Origin: Eledone cirrhosa
Taxonomy: Eukaryota
Direction of reading: 5' to 3'
Assembly: GCA_964016885.1 (NCBI GenBank)
Contig: OZ024742.1
Location: 331,328,001 to 331,392,000, forward strand
Length of the DNA stretch: 64,000 bases
The notes under the pieces are model-generated. The model did not search any database. It was given only the letters and a program-made list of their open reading frames with translations, and was not told where the DNA came from. Position numbers and translations under genes: made by a program. Of this stretch, positions 1-33,248 are shown one piece after another; the first letter of the stretch is position 1, and every line of letters starts with the position of its first letter.

Positions 1-1013
1 AATTTTGGAACTGTACACGAGAAATCTTACCAAATTTCTGGTTTCCCATTCTAACAATACAACTTTTCGGAACAATAACATGTCAGCAAGAAAACTTGTT
101 ATATAGACAAACACAAACCGGGGCTCTCTGTATTCATATTCAAGATAAGTTTTACGTACAAAGTCATGGGTTATAATTCTGTTATACGCCTCAATAAAGA
201 AACTTAATTGAGTACCGTAAAGAAAAAAATGAGCGACAAACAATAGGACAGAGGGTTTATTTAAATCAATACAACTCCCTGTGTGAGAACAAAATAGGCA
301 ACGTCAACGCAAATCCGATTGAACTTTTGAAAAGCTACTCATGGTAAACATCAATGTAAATGCTAATTGAATAATCAGGCTTATTTCTGAAAAAACATTC
401 CTATATTAAAAAAAAAAACAATTATAATTTATTTTATTGGAGCAACTTCATTAGGCCTCATTTGCACTCATCATTCAGTTCCCGTCAAATGTTGAACCGA
501 CTGGAAAATTATCCCCATATACACTACAGAGCACTTAATCATGAAAAGTACCAAACCATAATCACACAATCATACTATATCACAATTCTCTATGCATCCC
601 ACGACACACCGTTCTCCAAAAAACAAATTATACTGAATTAACTGAAATCTGAACTAATCCTAATTCAGAATAAATGATTACGTTCAGAAAAAGCAATAAA
701 ACGAAATTCTTAAACTAACGCTAGCTTCCATTTACACTACAGAAATATGAAGACATGAAACGGTTGAAGTGATTACCCTTGCGTATATTTTGGCAATATA
801 TCGTTTCGAATAACATAATTCCTTATACGACGAGAATGAAATATTTGAGGCAGACGTGCTACATTAACAGCTGGATGTATTTTCTAATGGCCGTCTCATA
901 GATTTAAGAAGAAAAGCAATAAGGTACTGCTCTATTAGAGGCACGAGAGGGCCGATACGCATGTCAACGGAAGCAAATCTCACCACCAAAAAGCACCTTC
1001 CTCCCAAAAATAT

Positions 1014-1105
1014 AATAATTGTTTCTACTTTTGGCACAAGGTCAGCAATTACCCAGTACTTTATTTACACGTACTTTATTTTATCGACCCCGTAAGGATG
1101 AAATC
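1014..1105 (-). mobile_element. Truncated tRNA-derived SINE (3' part; same family as 26725-26915)
   Basis: Reverse complement matches TCATCCTTACGGGGTCGATAAAATAAAGTAC...CCTTGTGCCAAAAGTAGAAACAATTATT of the full copies. Confidence 0.8.
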
Positions 1106-1440
1106 ATCTGATCTTGGCATCTGATCTTCCGCCCTGAATGAGACATGGCACGTTTTCAAGAGACATATGTAAAGAAACACTAAATATAACATTAATATTC
1201 AGACGTAGGAGCCCAAACCCCCCTAGCAACAAATATTCTTGGACCCAGCTGTGTTTGACTTGAGAGCGTTTCTGTGAGTCAAATGAAAAGTTTCACAGCA
1301 ATTTTAGACCACGTATGGACATTTTAATGGGATCAAAATTTCGAAATCTATATCAATATATGTGTACGGATTTCGTTTCGCAAACTTTAGTTTGAAATTT
1401 GGAAGCAGGAGTGTTATTGATATCCACATAGTCTCTCTAT

Positions 1441-1526
1441 TTCTATTACTACTGCTCCTCCTCCTCCTCCTCATCCTCCTCCTACTACTACTACTACTAC
1501 TACTACTGATATTACTGCTACTACTG

Positions 1527-1558
<32 letters not shown>

Positions 1559-1617
1559 GATACTACTACTACTACTACTACTACTACTGATACTACTACT
1601 ACTACGACTACTATTAT
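1441..1617. repeat. (CTA)n/(CTC)n trinucleotide microsatellite
   Basis: Visible directly; accounts for the poly-Ser and poly-Leu ORFs. Confidence 0.95.
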
Positions 1618-1662
1618 GTTCCTTAATAATCGCAACAGAAAAGCACATACAGAGATAAGTAC

Positions 1663-2135
1663 ATACGAGGTGGTATCAACAAATTTCCCGACTAGTTCTG
1701 TAGCGCGCTAATAGATGGCAACACATTGTTGTGTACGCAGTGAGAGCTTAGCAGTGACCTCCATGCGCCAGTGTGCCGTGTGACATTACTGTATTTACTT
1801 CTAAAGTTGTCATATTTGTCTTTTTGTGATCATGTGTATGATGTAGCTTGCGATTTCGTCATGAACAGCAAGTTGTAACGACGAGCCAACGTGAAATTTT
1901 GTTTTTACCTTGGGAAGTCTGATACAGAGACATTGAGCATGCGTCGGCAAGCTTACGGCGACGAGATATTGGGTTATACGCAAGCATTCGATGGCGGATG
2001 AATGTCCCAGGAAGATGACAAGTGAACTGAAAAACAAGGCATATAGCCTCGCCCCCGGAAATCTGGAGAAAATGAATCAGCTTGTGCACGAGGATGGCTG
2101 GAGGACAATCTATCGGTAAATATTCGTACAATGGA
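1663..2135 (+). mobile_element. Tc1/mariner transposon relic (left end plus N-terminal transposase HTH)
   Basis: Starts TACGAGGTGGTATCAAC (mariner-like terminus after TA). About 1880-1992 translates RANVKFCFYLGKSDTETLSMRRQAYGDEILGYTQAF, typical of mariner N-termini. Disrupted downstream. Confidence 0.75.
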
Positions 2136-4075
2136 AATATATTTCATTTTCTACAATATACACAGTAGATAAACACTACTCTATTTCAACAAACCCACAC
2201 GCACATATATAAATCTGACGACAGATGCGCACATATACATGTCAACTGCATATAAAATCAAACACACACAAACACAAAACTCATACAACAAATAACCAAA
2301 TATGTTCAAGAATTACAAGGTATGCTTTAATAGTAGACATATGATCTATCGAAAGGACAATTCATTTACTTTCTGTCATAACACTTGTGTATACAGATAT
2401 ATAAGCTGCCCTTCTCAAATATATTCGTGTTTCCACGATGTATGTCTGGTTAAATTTCGTACATGACACTTGTCAAAAGAAAAATGTTTTATTGACGCTA
2501 TTTCGGAAACAAAATATAAATAAAACGCATACTAATTTACATGGATCCTACATTTTTGGCATATGAAAATCATATATAATAATTGTGTAGCATACATAAA
2601 TGGGTAAGTCCTTTATTGAGAGCTATATAGATATATTTGAGAATAAACCAAGAGATTTACACAACGTTAATATTAATGACAGCAACGGTAGCCATTTTCT
2701 TTATGTTATAAATGATGGGTCTTACATATTAATTTTTATGCATCTTTCAGCTCCTAAGAAATTGCAAACATAAACCTATCGAAATTTAAAGAGCTTCTTT
2801 AGAACTTTATTTACAATATGTCCACTTTCATATATAGGATGGTATCTGTTGAAAGCCTTTCGATATTTATGTGAAAACGGTTATTCAGAATATTATTATA
2901 TGATAGTGATTTTATCAACGGACATTTTCCGGAAGAATATTATGGCATCAAATAATCTGTCTCCTAGATCCTTGCACATCTATCTTCACAGAATGACGAT
3001 TAGGATATAAAAACACACCATTATTGTGAAGAATGCTTTCAGGTTTCTCATCACTTTGCTTTTGTTAACGTTCTCCATATGTGTAGTAAGAAGTGAGAAG
3101 CATGAAATATGATTTCTATATATACTAAATCCATTTAACCGGATAGTATAGAGTCCCATTAATTGTACAGAATTGTCAAAATATGTTGCAAATTATACTT
3201 ATAGTTTTAGATCCAATGAAATACTTTATTGAGTTAACATTGGCAATGACTTCACTCCCTTCTTTTACATGGGGAAGATTTACATCTACAAAAGAATAAG
3301 CTGGAACGCTCATATACAAGAAACTATACATAATATTGTCACGTATTTATTAAACGGAATGGATGAAGTATTAAGGCTTTCTTCTCAAACCCAAACTGAA
3401 GTTTGTAACTGGTTAACAATATGTTTTAAACGTTTAGTCTTCAGAATTCCTTGAGATCTCAAATAGGTAGACAGTTTACACTTCGTTTTAACGCCCTCAG
3501 TTTGCTCAGGGATTACTCTGAATTTGGAGTGAATGGTACCCACACAACTTACCCTAAGTTATTCATCCACATAAATCCTGTCGGGTTTGTGGGCTTTCTA
3601 GTACAAGCCCACTCTTACCACGAATATCCATCACAAATTCAAATGGATCAGGACAAAAACAAACTAATTTATCTATCTATGACTCCGATTACCGTTACAC
3701 TATGCTGCGTCCCTTGTTCCCCCTTGCAAAGAAAAATGATATATTATAATTGCTTTTGTTGCTTCAAAAACTATTGCAGTTTTAGTGGTCTTATACGCAC
3801 CAGTCACCAACCTTTCGTAGCACCACGATGTCAAGGCTTTTTTAGAGGGAGCACTTACTCGGCTCAGCCTAGCTACATTACTTGGCTGTGAGAGTTTTCT
3901 TGGGATCTAATAGTGTCATCAATTTCTCTCCCTTTCCTTGTAGTTTACCGCTGTTTGTTCGAGTTTGCTCATTCGTCCGGTAGGATCACGCTCATATCGC
4001 AATTAACCATGGTATGAGATGGGTGTATCTCTATTCGCCAACCGCGACCCATTTTTCTGTAGAAGATATATAATA

Positions 4076-5214: not shown

Positions 5215-6224
<1,010 letters not shown>

Positions 6225-6235
6225 TCATATATCTA

Positions 6236-6273
<38 letters not shown>

Positions 6274-6383
6274 TTGAAAAAATGAAAACGAAATTTCATT
6301 TCTCACTCTTAGTATGGCACTTACTTAAATGTAAGTATGTATGTATACGTACATACATATATGTATACAGACGTACAGTAGCA

Positions 6384-6465
<82 letters not shown>

Positions 6466-6601
6466 CACATATGCATACAGGTACACATACATATATGCAC
6501 GCATCAGTTTAGTCGTTGACAAACAAACGAACAAAGCGGCCGGCGTTATAATAAACGTCGACTAAACTGATGCGTGCATATATGTATGTGTACCTGTATG
6601 C

Positions 6602-6664
<63 letters not shown>

Positions 6665-6899
6665 TGCTACTGTACGTCTGTATACATATATGTATGTACG
6701 TATACATACATACTTACATTTAAGTAAGTGCCATACTAAGAGTGAGAAATGAAATTTCGTTTTCATTTTTTCAACTTATCGTTTTCGGTATGCCTGACCG
6801 ATTTAACTCACTCAATATGCAAATTAGGCTGCTCAGCCGTTAATTTTCATAAGGAAAGTATATACTTTCGAACGTTCAACTATCTGGCAGATGGGTAAA

Positions 6900-6940
6900 C
6901 GGTGCTGATGATAGCTAACAAGCTTGAAACTAGTACATCG
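6900..6940 (+). ncRNA. Minimal type I hammerhead ribozyme
   Basis: CGGTG-CTGATGA-TAGCT(AACA)AGCTT-GAAA-CTAG-TA-CATCG: stem I CGGTG/CATCG, palindromic stem III ACTAGT, GUA cleavage triplet. Confidence 0.88.
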
Positions 6941-7105
6941 TTCCTGTGTCAGTGTTGAACAAAAAGGTGACGTGGTTGCCTTAACACCGTATGGCATAAA
7001 TTCAGGATGTTCGCTTTTTTGACAAACAAACGAACAAAGTGGCCGGCGTTATAATAAACGTCGACTAAACTGATGCGTGTATATATGTATGTGTACCTGT
7101 ATGCA

Positions 7106-7198
<93 letters not shown>

Positions 7199-7429
7199 TG
7201 CTACTGTACGTCTGTATACATATATGTATGTACGTATACATACTTACATTTAAGTAAGTGCCATACTAAGAGTGAGAAATGAAATTTCGTTTTCATTTTT
7301 TCAACTTATCGTTTTCGGTATGCCTGACCGATTTAACTCACTCAATATGCAAATTAGGCTGCTCAGCCGTTAATTTTCATAAGGAAAGTATATACTTTCG
7401 AACGTTCAACTATCTGGCAGATGGGTAAA

Positions 7430-7470
7430 CGGTGCTGATGATAGCTAACAAGCTTGAAACTAGTACATCG
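7430..7470 (+). ncRNA. Minimal type I hammerhead ribozyme (second copy)
   Basis: Identical to 6900-6940, 530 bp downstream. Confidence 0.88.
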
Positions 7471-7575
7471 TTCCTGTGTCAGTGTTGAACAAAAAGGTGA
7501 CGTGGTTGCCTTAACACCGTATGGCATAAATTCAGGCTGTTCGCTTTGTTGACAAACAAACGAACAAAGCGGCCG

Positions 7576-9412
7576 ATATACCAACTAGATCGCCCACCCT
7601 ATCCACCGCCCGCCAACCGCGAGCTGGAAGAAAAACTCTCGAGACTAAAACATTCCGTATTTAACATCTTACGGAAACAGAAGAAGATGGCCCCTAACCT
7701 CTCCAGGACACAACAACTCGCCCTGAAGAACCTACGTAATAAGGAACTTATTTACTTACCATCCGACAAAGGTAAAGAGTTCTGCGTCATCTCTCAAGCC
7801 ACATACAATAACCTAGCCTTCGAACACCTAAGCAACAGTGAACTGTACACAGTGATCCCGGACATGACCGCAGCCCAAATCGAAAAACAGACCAACTCCA
7901 TTTGGTTCGATATCTGTAGGAGAAGACAACTCCCGAATAAAATTAAACTCAACTACACCACTAGAAATAGCAGACTGCCTACTTTCTACCACCTCATCAA
8001 GACCCACAAGAATAGCACTAAGACGCATATAAGACCCATCGTCTCTAGCATAGAAGGACCCCTATACAAAATTTCCTGGCTTCTCTCCCAGGTCCTCAAG
8101 CCTCTACTCTCCACCTTCCCCGGACATGTCAGTAGTTCCGACGAAGTTATACGTAGATTACACCAACTCCAGCCAGAACAACTTAAACTTAATAAATACG
8201 CTTTTAGCCTCGACGTTGTCTCCCTCTACACTACAGTCCCCGCTCACCCAGCTGTCGATTTATTGACGGACTGCGTGGTCGCAGAGAACATCCACTGCTA
8301 CGGCCTCCACCCGACGGACATACACCAACTTTTGTCCTTCACAGTAGACAACACGTTCTTCACCTTCCACCAGCACACATACAGACAGACAACAGGATTA
8401 CCCATGGGATCCAGCCTCTCTGGCCTGCTGGCCATCACTTACATGAACCAACTAGAATGCCGAGCCCTCAACACCTGCCATTCCCATGCCTTCTTCACCC
8501 GATATGTAGATGACATACTCATCCTTACATCATCCCGTGAAGAGGAAGAGAAAATATACACAACATTCTCCAGCATGGACGCCAGTATAAAGTTCAGCAT
8601 AGAACACCCCGATGACCGCGGATCCCTATCCCTGCTGGACTTCCAACTCAGGGTAACAGAGGAAGGCAACATCCACACCTGCTTCTATAAAAAAATCCGC
8701 CAGCAGGGACCTGTTCGTACATTTCAGATCGGCCCTCCCACTCGGTGCCAAGTTCGGATACATAAAGAACGAACTGGCACGTATCAAGAACAAATGCACC
8801 GACGCCAGAGACCGAGACACACACACCACACATTTCCTGGAAGTACTCAAACTGAACGGATACACGACATCCACCACAAACCGTGCCAGAAAGAACAGAG
8901 GACACCACACCCGAGGCACTAACACTTGCTTCCTGAAGCTCCCACACTTCAGTGAAGAAACAACAACAGCCATCCGCAGAGCCATCAGACGAGAAGGTCT
9001 AGATATTCAACTGGCCCATTCGGGTCCTTCTTTACGTGGACGGCTAGCTAAGAGACACTCCACCAGACATGACAACTGCTGCAGACTAGCCAACTGCCCC
9101 ATCAACGACACAGACCTATGCCACCAGGCTTACGTAGTTTACAGACTAGAGTGTGACAAATGCAACAACTTCTACGTAGGTAGCACCACCAGACCACTCC
9201 ACATAAGAATAAAAGAACACCTCAATACTAACGCTTCCTCATTTAAGAAACACCTAGTTAAATGCAAAAACACTGATAAAAACATAACAGTTAGGATAGA
9301 AACTAAAGAAAGAAACCTCGGCAATCTTAGAATCAAGGAAGCACTCATTATAGATAGAACACATCCACCAATCAATAATAGACTAGAGCTCAACACCCAA
9401 TTTATAACCTGA
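7576..9412 (+). pseudogene. Penelope-like element ORF: reverse transcriptase + C-terminal GIY-YIG endonuclease; 5'-truncated, one frameshift
   Basis: RT motifs PSDKGK, IKTHK, RPIVS, SLDVVSLYT, GLPMGSSLS, RYVDD. One extra A in the run at ~8689-8695; removing it gives FYKKSASRDLFVHF...CPINDTDLCHQAYVVYRLECDKCNNFYVGSTTRPLHIRIKEH...RIKEALII...IN, stop at 9410-9412. Confidence 0.93.
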
Positions 9413-9946
9413 TAGGGCCTCTAGCCCCACTTTACGCACCCCACACACACGCACGCGCACACCTCCACTTATTCTCTCTCACACATACACACACAAAACC
9501 AGTTCTAACACTAGATAACACCTACCCCTCACTTTTACGATTAGACCTATCTTCCCACACTCACACACACACACCCACATACCTACACCTTCATGCTTTC
9601 TCCCACACACATATACAGGCACGCATATAAAATTTAAAAAACACAACAAAAACATAAACAAACCCCTCTTAAAGGGAGACTACTCTTTACCCACCTAATT
9701 TTAATTCTTTGATATTAAAGTTAGAACTCTATACTATTTCCGGTCAGCATGGCTTCATTGGAAATTTAAGACGCTGGTCTGAGACTTTTACTTCCCTCCG
9801 AAGAAGAGATATTATCTCGAAAATTAAGGACATTTAAATAAATTCAAGGTGAAAGACGAATTCTCATCAATATCTCTCACTATTGCATTCTTTTTTCTAT
9901 GTCCATATCTGCATTGTCTTGGCCTTATTACACATATTCTAACGTT

Positions 9947-9968
<22 letters not shown>
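7576..9968 (+). mobile_element. Penelope-like retroelement including 3' UTR, ending in (TA)n
   Basis: ORF as above, followed by ~530 bp non-coding sequence and a (TA)n tract. Confidence 0.85.
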
Positions 9969-9978
<10 letters not shown>

Positions 9979-10668
9979 CGTGTGTATGTACGTCTGTTAT
10001 GCAAAAACCAACCAGAGAAGCTTTCGTGGATGACCGGAGTATGCATACCATGCTGAAATAACAGCCAAGCACAAGGACTCGTACATTGTTGGTAGAACTT
10101 TGTCCTTCAAACATCACCTTCTTTTGCCACTCCCATATGATCGCCCTTGCCTATAACATTTTTCAAAAAGGTCCTCATTAATTGAAAAATAACGAGGTCC
10201 AACAATGTCGGAACACTTCCAAATAACTGCCGGCTCAACCTCTGGATGCCTGTGTTTGACGTTGAAATGTAAGTGGAGATGAAAGGATCATTTATTTTCG
10301 TAATCCTATTAAGAGAAACCCTTGGCTTCATTGTGCTCAGTTTTCAGAACATGTCTATCATGGGCAATTTGAACAGAAATTCATTCTGTGTGGAATTTTG
10401 AGAGAGGGGGGGGGGGGGGGGCTGAATAGTGACCTTGTCCTTACGGTCATTCTGTGAACGATACATTTTATGTTCAACAAATGTGGTGATTATATAATGC
10501 TTTGCAATCCTGATGTACCCTATGTCTGTTTAAGAATTATTCGTGTGCAGAGAGTATTAGTATCATTTTCGATTATTAAGCAGTATTTTGTTCTCATATA
10601 TATATATATATATATATATAATGAAATGACAAGAGGCTGGATTTGTGTAAATCCTTGAAAGGTTTATT

Positions 10669-31868: not shown

Positions 31869-32304
31869 AGTAAAGATATGCATATGCTATAAGCGTTCTT
31901 TGTTATTTATTTATTATATTACGGCTCTGTCCTCAGACATTGAGCTAACCTCATACTGCCTGCTGGATAAGTGGAGTGTTATACACCCCTGATCCTTTCC
32001 CTAGCATACTATATATATATATATATATATATATAAACGGATACAATGAAACAAAATTTCATTTCCCACTCTTAGTACGGCTGTTACTTAAATATACGTA
32101 TGTACACGTACATACATATATGTATACAAACGTACTGTAGTATGTATATATATATATATACATGCATGCACACATATATATACGTACGTATGGATTCACC
32201 GAACAGTTATTATAATGCTCGGTGTGTTTGTAAACAAACATCCCGTATTAAGCCGTAGTGTCTAGCAACCATCGTTGCTCGTTTGTTCAACACTGAAAAA
32301 GGAA

Positions 32305-32345
32305 CGCTGTACTAGTTTCAAGCTTATTAGCTATCGTCAGCAACG
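32305..32345 (-). ncRNA. Minimal type I hammerhead ribozyme
   Basis: Reverse complement CGTTG-CTGACGA-TAGCT(AATA)AGCTT-GAAA-CTAG-TA-CAGCG. Confidence 0.88.
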
Positions 32346-32604
32346 TATAACTTCCTGCCAGATTGTTGAACGTATATACTTACCTTATGCATATTAACTG
32401 CTGAGTAGCCCAATTTGCATATCGAGTGGGTTAATCGGCCGAGTGCACCGAAAGCGATAAACGGAAAAAATGAATCGACATTTCATTTCCCACTCTTAGT
32501 ACGGCTGTTACTTAAATGTAAGTATGTACACGTACATACCTATATGTAAACAGACGTACAGTTGTATGTATATATATATATACATACATGCACACACACA
32601 CACA

Positions 32605-32703
<99 letters not shown>

Positions 32704-32940
32704 GTATGGATTCACCTAACATTTATTTACGTCTGTCTACATATATGTATGTACGTGTACATACTTATATTTAAGTAACAGCCGTACTAAGAGTGGGAAA
32801 TGAAATTTCGTTTCATTTTTTCCGTTTATCGTTCTCGGTGCACCCGGCCGATTAACCCACTCGATATGCAAATTGGGCTCCTCAGCCGTTAATATGCATA
32901 AGGTAAGTATATACGTTCAACAATCTGGCTTGAAGATATA

Positions 32941-32981
32941 CGTTGCTGACGATAGCTAATAAGCTTGAAACTAGTACAGCG
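32941..32981 (+). ncRNA. Minimal type I hammerhead ribozyme
   Basis: CGTTG-CTGACGA-TAGCT(AATA)AGCTT-GAAA-CTAG-TA-CAGCG. Confidence 0.88.
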
Positions 32982-33155
32982 TTCCTTTGTCAGTGTTGAA
33001 CAAACGAGCAACGATGGTTGATAGACACTACGGCTTAATACGGGATGTTTGTTTACAAACACACCGAGCATTATAATAAATGTTCGGTGAATCCATACGT
33101 ACATATATATATATGTGTGCATGTATGTATATATATATATACATACTACTGTACG

Positions 33156-33248
<93 letters not shown>

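What the first reader, a model, noticed from the sequence alone, without database searches (positions are those of the whole stretch)
6271..9968. HHR tandem repeat fused directly to a 5'-truncated Penelope ORF it does not appear to belong to
Seen: the third repeat unit breaks off at ...AAAGCGGCCG (7575) and PLE coding sequence begins immediately, on the same strand. The repeat does not match this PLE's own 3' UTR (9413-9945), unlike a normal pLTR. Inference: a template switch by PLE RT from its own RNA onto a circular HHR RNA (two rounds, then an inversion). That would be direct evidence of trans-mobilisation. Nested insertion is the alternative.
Basis: inference. Interest (0 to 1): 0.72.

Follow-up and report, generated by a model that had tools for sequence, protein, structure and literature searches.

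The report
Penelope element fused to ribozyme repeat
A broken copy of a Penelope-type jumping gene is joined directly to about two units, plus a mirror-image stub, of an unrelated small repeat that carries a hammerhead ribozyme motif, all inside one TA microsatellite; this likely records one enzyme copying two different RNAs in a single insertion, a step that has been proposed but not shown.

Summary
Window 6271-9950 is one block between (TA)n tracts. It holds an inverted 246-nt repeat arm, 2.1 direct units of a 503-530-bp repeat (REP), then a 5'-truncated Penelope-like element (PLE, unit positions 757-3141 of 3141).

REP has a minimal type I hammerhead, supported by covariation but below Rfam thresholds. 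It shows no similarity to the PLE and is not its pLTR: in the 39 sampled places where PLE copies have upstream element sequence, it is their own (13 tandem, 25 head-to-head). No repeat remainder follows the PLE. The REP|PLE joint (CCG microhomology) and the inversion joint are each unique in the 3.0-Gb genome.

Both families are young and abundant, insert in (TA)n and form the same head-to-head "two-armed" insertions. A second, independent REP-PLE fusion exists elsewhere on the same contig.

Best reading (about 0.5): one insertion event in which the RT switched from PLE RNA to multimeric or circular REP RNA. "Circular" is not shown. Main rival (about 0.35): a PLE landed beside an older REP insertion and deleted its end. 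An allele or long-read survey would decide.

Earlier scan notes report a related Penelope-retrozyme fusion on other DNA of this genome.

The parts
6083..6270 (.). Left (TA)n tract (188 nt), part of a compound (CT)n(TA)n microsatellite. It is the presumed target site, so a target-site duplication cannot be read.
6271..6516 (-). Inverted REP arm, REP positions 530->284. Its outer end is the family's usual 3' end (...CAACTT/A) abutting (TA)n.
   Evidence: the same outer end is seen in other REP loci
6516..6517 (.). Inversion joint between the minus arm (inner end REP 284) and the plus array (start REP 239-241). The 28-mer across it occurs once in the genome.
6517..6779 (+). Direct REP, partial unit (REP 241-530), with an internal (TA)n of 53 nt at 6609-6661.
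6780..7309 (+). Direct REP, one full 530-nt unit, with an internal (TA)n of 85 nt at 7111-7195. GC 31.7%.
6898..6942 (+). Minimal type I hammerhead motif. Helix I is 7 bp, the core is CUGAUGA / GAAA, helix II is 4 bp, and helix III is 2 bp inside the palindrome ACUAGU. The predicted cut follows GUA, between 6935 and 6936.
7310..7575 (+). Direct REP, partial unit (REP 1-266), broken off at ...AAAGCGGCCG. It has 0 differences from the family majority in 266 nt.
7428..7472 (+). Second copy of the hammerhead motif. The predicted cut lies between 7465 and 7466.
   Evidence: copy 530 nt downstream of the first
7573..7575 (+). CCG microhomology at the REP|PLE joint (REP ...GCGGCCG|GCGTTAT; PLE ...GATTCCCG|ATATACC). 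The 30-mer across the joint occurs once in the genome, allowing up to 2 mismatches.
7576..9412 (+). PLE ORF remnant (about codons 252-860) with RT and C-terminal GIY-YIG domains. It is broken by a private 1-nt insertion in an A-run near 8689.
9413..9950 (+). PLE 3' UTR up to the normal 3' end ...CTAACGTTTATA. This copy lacks the 40-nt tail that many other copies carry on one arm. No canonical hammerhead core was found.
9951..9971 (.). Right (TA)n tract, followed by degenerate (TG)n. No REP remainder follows.
9987..9997 (+). An 11-mer, TGTACGTCTGT, that otherwise occurs in the window only inside REP and REP2 copies. The extended similarity is not significant. It remains unexplained.

Best explanation
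A 5'-truncated Penelope-like element (unit positions 757-3141) and 2.1 tandem units plus an inverted 246-nt arm of an unrelated hammerhead-bearing repeat form one block bounded by (TA)n, and this block was likely written in a single target-primed insertion in which the reverse transcriptase probably switched, at a CCG microhomology, from Penelope RNA onto multimeric or circular repeat RNA.

Shown:
- the anatomy of the block;
- that both inner joints are private to this locus;
- that the two families share no sequence;
- that both families target (TA)n and build the same head-to-head two-armed insertions;
- that a second, independent fusion of the same layout exists.

Inferred steps:
1. The bottom-strand nick in (TA)n primed on PLE RNA at ...GUUUAUA, and 2.37 kb was copied.
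2. The RT left the PLE RNA at position 757-760 and continued on REP RNA from REP 266 for 1,059 nt. It passed twice through the ribozyme cut site and twice through the 530|1 unit border, so the template was uncleaved or religated (multimer or circle).
3. The top-strand nick primed a second cDNA on the usual 3' end of REP RNA, giving the 246-nt inverted arm.
4. The two cDNAs were joined at 6516|6517.

On this reading, the RT of a coding PLE used retrozyme-like RNA as template in the same event.
For: - Direct fusion on one strand, with no (TA)n or other filler between REP and PLE, and a 3-nt microhomology.
- The REP|PLE joint and the inversion joint each occur once in 3.0 Gb. Neither was inherited from a master copy in this assembly.
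- No REP remainder lies downstream of the PLE. The block's outer ends are the usual 3' ends of REP (left, minus strand) and PLE (right), each in (TA)n.
- REP behaves like a PLE passenger. It has at least 818 candidate sites at 98-99% identity (40 scored), ends at a fixed 3' end in (TA)n, and shows both orientations in 12 of 20 places. PLE|PLE head-to-head joints occur in 25 of 39 places.
- Loads of private changes are similar. REP has 4 in about 989 nt. The PLE has 9 substitutions plus 1 insertion in 1,925 nt.
- All three differences between units 1 and 2 are private or near-private to unit 1. This fits one template variant.
- A second fusion has the same layout (L067, G000:C3:361639000-361648500): (TA)n, minus REP arms, inversion, plus REP 166->~455, PLE 750->3141 with tail, (TA)n. 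It differs in REP subfamily, joint (CA microhomology) and PLE sub-lineage, and that joint is also unique.
- Unfused REP/PLE neighbours were not seen in 29 REP loci or in 38 further PLE places.
Against: - No empty or intermediate allele could be examined. The public runs are short contigs that break at the repeats. The right flank has no close paralogue.
- A target-site duplication cannot be read in (TA)n.
- PLE 5' joints in non-TA DNA are common (4 of 9 single-arm copies, by eye). A 5' joint formed with loss of upstream target DNA is therefore plausible. Microhomology-mediated 5' joints without a duplication are described for Penelope (PMC3846280, passages read).
- Both families target (TA)n and REP carries (TA)n, so chance neighbours are expected. 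L110 looks like such a case: a REP fragment, about 70 nt of (TA)n, then PLE 750->, and no REP after the PLE.
- The internal (TA)n differs by 32 nt between the two units (53 vs 85 nt). On a single circle this needs slippage.
- An 11-mer otherwise found in the window only in REP and REP2 lies 16 nt beyond the right (TA)n. It could be a trace of older REP DNA.
- Samples are small, and they are the best-scoring 40 of 700-1,500 candidates, so they are not random.
Confidence: 0.5

Rival explanations
1. Two steps. A normal two-armed REP insertion sat in the (TA)n first. A PLE later primed in the (TA)n on its right. Its 5'-truncated cDNA was joined by CCG microhomology to upstream DNA 264 nt inside the REP plus arm, deleting the arm's end and the intervening (TA)n.
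For: - Both families target (TA)n.
- Four of 9 single-arm PLE copies have non-TA DNA directly at the 5' joint.
- Microhomology 5' joints without a target duplication are reported for Penelope (PMC3846280).
- L110 shows that a PLE can sit in (TA)n next to a REP fragment.
- The REP part alone has the ordinary REP architecture.
Against: - It needs a deletion ending inside REP both here (264 nt plus TA) and in L067 (about 75 nt plus TA).
- No unfused REP/PLE neighbours were seen in 29 REP loci or 38 other PLE places.
- Loads of private changes in REP and PLE are alike. This does not require equal age, but it gives no sign of an older REP.
Confidence: 0.35
2. Later rearrangement. Independent REP and PLE insertions lay in the same microsatellite. 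A subsequent deletion (end joining at CCG) removed the PLE 5' part, the spacer and the REP 3' part.
For: Microsatellite-rich, palindromic DNA is deletion-prone (general knowledge). The 3-nt microhomology fits end joining.
Against: - It needs two insertions in the same orientation plus a deletion.
- The same would have had to happen again at L067.
- 5' truncation is already the normal state of PLE copies, so no extra deletion is needed to explain that part.
Confidence: 0.08
3. Retrotransposition of a pre-formed chimeric REP-PLE RNA, that is, a chimeric sub-family with REP as its 5' module or promoter.
For: Three PLE copies that are fused to or lie beside REP break within 10 nt of each other: unit position 750 in L067 and L110, and 757-760 in the window.
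Against: - Each joint is unique.
- The REP side differs in position, orientation and subfamily.
- The window's PLE groups with L033 and L032, not with L058/L067, and L110's PLE is 6.1% diverged.
- Breaks at 751, 755/756 and 760 without REP also exist, so the interval is not REP-specific.
Confidence: 0.04
4. The repeat is simply the pLTR or terminal region of this or another coding PLE, so this is a normal PLE structure.
For: pLTRs of many PLEs carry hammerheads, and vertebrate retrozymes resemble pLTRs (bioRxiv 10.64898/2026.07.22.740005, sections 14 and 16 read).
Against: - REP and this PLE share no similarity.
- The upstream partner in 39 of 39 other places is never REP, except for the L067 fusion.
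- tblastn with the 860-aa ORF finds no PLE ORF beside 29 REP and 30 REP2 loci, apart from one decayed 100-aa fragment about 770 nt away.
Confidence: 0.02

Closest known systems
Metazoan non-LTR retrozymes (Cervera and de la Pena 2020, PMC7229834; abstract and passages read)
   Same: - Dispersed short tandem arrays of a non-coding, AT-rich unit, each with a type I hammerhead.
- Minimal helix III inside a palindrome, as in forms said to act as dimers.
- Coexistence with autonomous PLEs, which that paper names as a "strong candidate" mover.
   Different: - The unit (503-530 bp) is longer than the 170-400 nt quoted.
- It has an internal (TA)n, a fixed 3' end in (TA)n, and frequent head-to-head arms.
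- RNA, cleavage and circles were not tested here.
- Here the repeat is physically fused to a coding PLE.
Complex Penelope insertions: direct or inverted pLTRs, a one-sided tail, microhomology 5' joints, capture of unrelated DNA (Arkhipova et al. 2013, PMC3846280; passages read)
   Same: - Head-to-head arms.
- An optional short tail on one arm (40 nt here).
- 5' truncation.
- Preference for simple AT-rich targets.
- Template jumps are proposed there.
   Different: There, the captured DNA lies between the element's own pLTRs. Here the partner is another mobile RNA family with its own 3' end forming one arm, and no PLE pLTR lies upstream.
Retrozymes as non-autonomous derivatives of PLEs (Li, Clavereau, Pollet, bioRxiv 10.64898/2026.07.22.740005; abstract and sections 14 and 16 read)
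   Same: The same proposed pairing of partners: retrozymes mobilised by PLE enzymes.
   Different: Their evidence is co-occurrence and pLTR similarity in vertebrates. Here REP has no similarity to the PLE it is fused to, and the evidence is a physical joint. In the sections read, I saw no chimeric insertions described.
LINE-1 chimeric retrocopies such as U6/L1 (PMC11838501, PMC4476161, PMC2104539; search listing and abstract starts only)
   Same: The 3' part is a 5'-truncated autonomous element and the 5' part is a copy of an abundant small RNA on the same strand. This is read as an RT template switch during one insertion.
   Different: - A different RT class (PLE, with GIY-YIG nuclease).
- The acceptor is copied for more than two unit lengths and is broken at an internal position.
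- An inverted arm is present.
- No poly(A) and no readable target duplication.

Membership tests
Penelope-like element, canonical C-terminal EN+ type | Single ORF with a reverse transcriptase domain | tested here: met
   RVT_1 at E 7e-16, residues 396-591 of the 860-aa ORF of a full-length copy. The window copy is 98.5% identical over unit positions 757-3141.
Penelope-like element, canonical C-terminal EN+ type | C-terminal GIY-YIG endonuclease with two Cys between GIY and YIG (CCHH) | tested here: met
   Pfam GIY-YIG at E 1.4e-05, residues 768-846. VVYRLECDKCNNFYVG followed by ...KEH...KRH is read. The motif definition comes from PMC8557442.
Penelope-like element, canonical C-terminal EN+ type | N-terminal DKG motif (DKT in the Hydra clade) | tested here: met
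   LPSDKGKEF is read. By the criteria of PMC8557442 section 11, the element is therefore not Hydra.
Penelope-like element, canonical C-terminal EN+ type | Tandem or inverted partial copies (pLTRs), 5' truncation, one-sided tail | tested here: met
   Head-to-tail joints in 13 of 39 sampled places and head-to-head joints in 25 of 39. A 40-nt tail is seen on one arm in many places.
Penelope-like element, canonical C-terminal EN+ type | Canonical hammerhead in the terminal repeat (usual, not obligatory) | tested here: not met
   No CUGANGA...GAAA core on either strand of the unit. No hammerhead hit up to E 10 in the 3' UTR, the unit junction or the 5' region. Rearranged forms were not tested.
Metazoan non-LTR retrozyme | Dispersed short tandem repeats, AT-rich, with no coding capacity | tested here: met
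   At least 818 candidate sites, in arrays of about 1 to more than 6 units. GC is 31.7%, and the longest stop-free run in a dimer is 83 codons. The unit, at 503-530 bp, is longer than the published 170-400 nt range.
Metazoan non-LTR retrozyme | One type I hammerhead per unit | tested here: met
   The core is conserved. 91.2% of cells pair against 19-38% in slid controls, and 8 of 13 pairs are compensated. The Rfam score is only 18.5 bits against a gathering score of 52.
Metazoan non-LTR retrozyme | Expressed as self-cleaved linear and circular RNA | not testable with these tools
   No RNA run is listed for this stretch. The runs that could be laid are contigs.
Chimeric retrocopy made by RT template switching (L1/U6 type) | Two unrelated RNA copies fused head-to-tail on one strand, the 3' one being the 5'-truncated autonomous element | tested here: met
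Chimeric retrocopy made by RT template switching (L1/U6 type) | One target-site duplication around the whole chimera, or an empty-site allele | tested here: inconclusive
   Both flanks are (TA)n. No paralogous or allelic empty site was found.

The most novel reading that the evidence does not exclude
One Penelope integration complex wrote two unrelated RNAs into a single chromosomal break. It copied its own mRNA, then ran more than two laps on a circular hammerhead RNA, while the other DNA end primed on the same small RNA. This would be the first physical footprint that a coding Penelope-like element reverse-transcribes retrozyme RNA, and that it does so by rolling-circle copying.
Probability: 0.3. 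Interest if true: 0.75.

Novelty: new variant of a known kind. Interest (0 to 1): 0.55.

Why it matters
The papers read here name Penelope-like elements only as the likely movers of animal retrozymes. Their grounds are co-occurrence, shared hammerheads and pLTR similarity (PMC7229834 discussion passage; bioRxiv 10.64898/2026.07.22.740005, sections 14 and 16). They state that the mechanism remains to be worked out.

A fusion between a coding PLE and a sequence-unrelated retrozyme-like repeat would be direct genomic evidence for that link if it arose in one event. Its features fit that reading: private joints, canonical outer ends and a second independent example. It would also show that the passenger need not resemble the PLE's own termini.

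My searches for papers holding "Penelope-like" with "template switching" and "chimeric", and "retrozyme" with "Penelope-like" and "hammerhead", listed no paper whose title or abstract start describes such fusions. The full texts of most were not read.

If the two-step reading is right, the locus is an ordinary nested pile-up in a TA microsatellite.

Tried and rejected
- **Rfam at gathering thresholds, whole window:** nothing. The hammerhead had to be shown by core and covariation instead.
- **Sequencing runs:** no RNA holder is listed. The four runs laid are short contigs that stop at the repeats, so they give no presence/absence or transcript information. They show only that both families occur at 95% likeness or more in runs labelled as two other organisms.
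- **Paralogous empty site:** the right flank from about 10055 is an old 65-75% repeat, and nothing closer exists.
- **The 11-mer at 9987-9997 as a REP remnant:** the exact word is rare, but the best local alignment score is reached by 39 of 300 shuffles. Left unexplained.
- **Hot spot at PLE 750-760.** The window (757-760), L067 (750) and L110 (750) break close together, and two of them are fused to REP.
  - Breaks at 751, 755/756 and 760 without REP also exist.
  - L117 and L118 are uninterrupted variants.
  - With 700-1,500 or more copies, a few breaks per 12 nt are expected.
  - The REP enrichment in this interval is post hoc and rests on 2-3 loci.
- **A word shared by the PLE (AACTAGATCG at 767) and the REP ribozyme site (AACTAGTACATCG):** AACTAGA occurs twice and ACTAG six times in the PLE. 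Treated as chance.
- **ADAR-type editing in L110:** its 95 differences are balanced transitions, so no.
- **REP2 as an older copy of REP:** it is a young sister family.
- **REP as the tail of a second coding PLE (L015/L149):** only a decayed 99-100-aa fragment was found.
- **** failed on a too-short search term, and **** on pattern length. Both were corrected.
Full report
**What is there.** The window lies at G000:C3:331328001-331392000 of a 3.0-Gb animal genome. Between a 188-nt (TA)n tract (6083-6270) and a 25-nt (TA)n tract (9947-9971) lies one composite block:

- An inverted arm of a repeat I call REP lies at 6271-6516 on the minus strand, covering REP positions 530->284.
- Direct REP follows at 6517-6779 (REP 241-530), 6780-7309 (a full 530-nt unit) and 7310-7575 (REP 1-266).
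- From 7576, with no spacer and on the same strand, comes a Penelope-like element (PLE) that runs to its normal 3' end at 9950.
- The three bases CCG at 7573-7575 fit both partners. REP continues ...GCGGCCG|GCGTTAT in its other units, and full-length PLE copies read ...GATTCCCG|ATATACC.

**The PLE.** Other copies show that the full unit is 3,141 nt. It has a 12-nt leader, an 860-codon ORF and a 3' UTR of about 550 nt.

- It has a DKG motif and two cysteines between GIY and YIG (read).
- By the criteria in PMC8557442 it is a canonical EN+ PLE and not of the Hydra clade. I did not place it further.
- The family is young and abundant: 701 and 1,494 first-look candidates for two segments, with the 40 scored in each at 98-99% identity.

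The window copy covers unit positions 757-3141, so it lacks about 250 codons. It carries 9 private substitutions and one private 1-nt insertion (the frameshift near 8689) in 1,925 aligned nt, compared with 28 other copies.

I found no canonical hammerhead core in the unit.

In 39 other distinct places sampled, 25 have a head-to-head PLE|PLE joint and 13 a head-to-tail one. Where element sequence lies upstream of a copy, it is the element's own. Many two-armed insertions carry a 40-nt tail (unit positions 1-40) on one arm.

**The repeat.**

- REP has at least 818 candidate sites. The 40 scored are mostly 98-99% identical.
- In 29 other loci (20 distinct places) it forms short arrays. These usually end at the same 3' end (...TTCAACTTA) against (TA)n.
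- 12 of 20 places hold both orientations, the same odd head-to-head layout as the PLE.
- GC is 31.7% and it has no long open frame.
- REP shows no similarity to the PLE.
- tblastn with the PLE protein finds no ORF beside 29 REP loci or 30 loci of the sister family REP2. The only exception is one decayed 100-aa fragment about 770 nt from an array.

REP is therefore not a pLTR of a coding element in this sample.

**The hammerhead.** Rfam gives nothing at gathering level and only 18.5 bits for HH9. Each full unit nevertheless reads AACGGUG-CUGAUGA-U-AGCU-AACA-AGCU-U-GAAAC-UA-GUA|CAUCGUU. The features are:

- a 7-bp helix I;
- a 4-bp helix II;
- a 2-bp helix III inside the palindrome ACUAGU;
- a predicted cut after GUA (6935|6936 and 7465|7466).

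Evidence comes from 187 strict-motif occurrences in the fetched loci, which gave 45 distinct variants. I aligned 27 of these, taken from REP, REP2 and a third family (L020:507-565).

- 91.2% of cells pair, against 19-38% when partners are slid.
- Eight of 13 pairs change on both sides.
- No shuffle of 500 reaches any measure.
- In the third family the palindrome becomes ACGCGU, so it stays a palindrome.

Most double changes come from that one family and from the REP/REP2 split, so the number of independent events is small. Cleavage and circular RNA were not testable.

- "Full-length PLE copies carry this repeat as pLTR": not so.
- "The rest of the repeat unit lies after the PLE": not so. The next REP-like DNA in the window is a separate REP2 insertion at 32030-33230.
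- An 11-mer at 9987-9997 otherwise occurs in the window only in REP and REP2. The surrounding similarity is not significant, with 39 of 300 shuffles reaching it.
- The 30-mer across the REP|PLE joint and the 28-mer across the inversion joint each occur once in the genome, allowing up to 2 mismatches.

**Age and template.**

- REP pieces in the block carry 4 private or near-private differences in about 989 nt. The PLE carries 10 in 1,925 nt. The loads are alike, which fits one event but does not prove it.
- Units 1 and 2 differ at three sites, all private or near-private to unit 1, plus a 4-nt ATAC slippage and a 32-nt difference in the internal (TA)n.
- The array passes seamlessly twice through the ribozyme cut site and twice through the 530|1 border. 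The template was therefore uncleaved or religated. A multimeric transcript and a circle fit equally well.

**Other fusions.** Among the 39 other PLE places, one is fused to REP (L058/L094, fetched as L067). Read in PLE orientation, it has:

- (TA)n;
- minus-strand REP arms of about 2.1 units;
- an inversion;
- plus-strand REP 166->~455;
- PLE 750->3141 with its tail;
- (TA)n, with no REP after the PLE.

Its REP belongs to another subfamily and the joint shows CA microhomology. The joint is unique. Its PLE is not of the window copy's sub-lineage, since the window groups with L033 and L032. This is therefore an independent event with the same layout.

A third locus, L110, has a 65-nt minus-strand REP fragment, about 70 nt of (TA)n, then a 6.1%-diverged PLE from position 750 with its tail and (TA)n. 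With (TA)n on both sides of the PLE, it looks like a plain insertion next to a REP fragment.

The closeness of the three PLE break points (750, 750, 757-760) caught my eye. However, breaks at 751, 755/756 and 760 without REP exist as well. At this copy number, a few breaks per dozen bases are expected. I leave the apparent REP enrichment there as an unexplained, post hoc observation.

**Mechanism.** For both families the common product is a head-to-head pair of arms whose outer ends are template 3' ends in (TA)n. This is most simply read as both strands of a staggered break priming reverse transcription, followed by joining of the two cDNAs. That reading is an inference. Self-priming and template jumps are discussed for Penelope in PMC3846280.

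In this block the left arm is REP and the right arm starts as PLE. The plus-strand REP between them is contiguous with the PLE. It can belong only to the right-arm cDNA, because the left arm (246 nt) is too short to have templated 1,059 nt.

The simplest one-event account is therefore an RT switch from PLE RNA at positions 757-760 to REP RNA at position 266. I put this at about 0.5.

The main rival (about 0.35) is a PLE insertion into the (TA)n beside an older two-armed REP insertion, with its 5' joint formed 264 nt inside REP. Two observations keep it alive:

- Four of 9 single-arm PLE copies have non-TA DNA at their 5' joint (judged by eye).
- Both families seek (TA)n.

Against it, no unfused REP/PLE neighbours turned up in 29 REP loci and 38 other PLE places. 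The samples are small, though, and they are the best-scoring hits rather than random ones.

**Comparison with what is known.** The papers read name PLEs as the probable movers of animal retrozymes on indirect grounds (PMC7229834; bioRxiv 10.64898/2026.07.22.740005). PLE insertions with captured foreign DNA and microhomology joints are known (PMC3846280). RT-switch chimeras are known for LINE-1 (listings only).

A coding PLE fused to a sequence-unrelated retrozyme-like repeat is a new variant of these known kinds.

Earlier notes of this scan report a head-to-head Penelope-retrozyme fusion and two-armed retrozyme insertions on other DNA of this genome. I did not see those loci. My own data agree on the architecture.

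Noticed in passing
window 32030-33230: A separate two-armed insertion of a sister repeat family (REP2, 77-88% like REP) sits in another (TA)n. Its hammerhead has N7 U->C, and one helix I pair is flipped from G.U to U.G. REP2 is itself young and abundant (at least 309 candidates; the 40 scored are 97-98% identical).
   Followed up: partly
L020:507-565 (minus strand): A third hammerhead family lies beside a REP array. Helices I and II are fully compensated, and the helix III palindrome is changed from ACUAGU to ACGCGU.
   Followed up: partly
L061:5898-9038 and many PLE loci: This PLE family has only a 12-nt leader before its ATG. It carries a 40-nt tail (unit positions 1-40) after the 3' end on one arm of most two-armed insertions. 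No canonical hammerhead core was found anywhere in the unit.
   Followed up: partly
window 9987-9997: The 11-mer TGTACGTCTGT, otherwise seen in the window only inside REP and REP2 copies, lies 16 nt beyond the right (TA)n in degenerate (TG)n.
   Followed up: yes
window 10055-10400: The right flank is part of an old dispersed repeat (about 19 hits at 65-86% identity).
   Followed up: no
L127-L134, L146-L147 (G000:C28:110.04-110.06 Mb and 116.22-116.24 Mb): REP2 hammerhead copies recur at 2.1-3.8-kb spacing on one contig. This suggests a higher-order repeat or a larger unit. No PLE ORF was detected in them by tblastn.
   Followed up: partly
L110 / L159 (G000:C4:202809800-202815657): A 6%-diverged PLE copy, broken at the same unit position (750) as the L067 fusion, lies about 70 nt of (TA)n away from a 65-nt REP fragment.
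   Followed up: yes
window 5650-10350, runs X5 and X6: Contigs of runs labelled as two other organisms carry both REP and the PLE at 95% likeness or more, so both families are shared beyond this genome.
   Followed up: no
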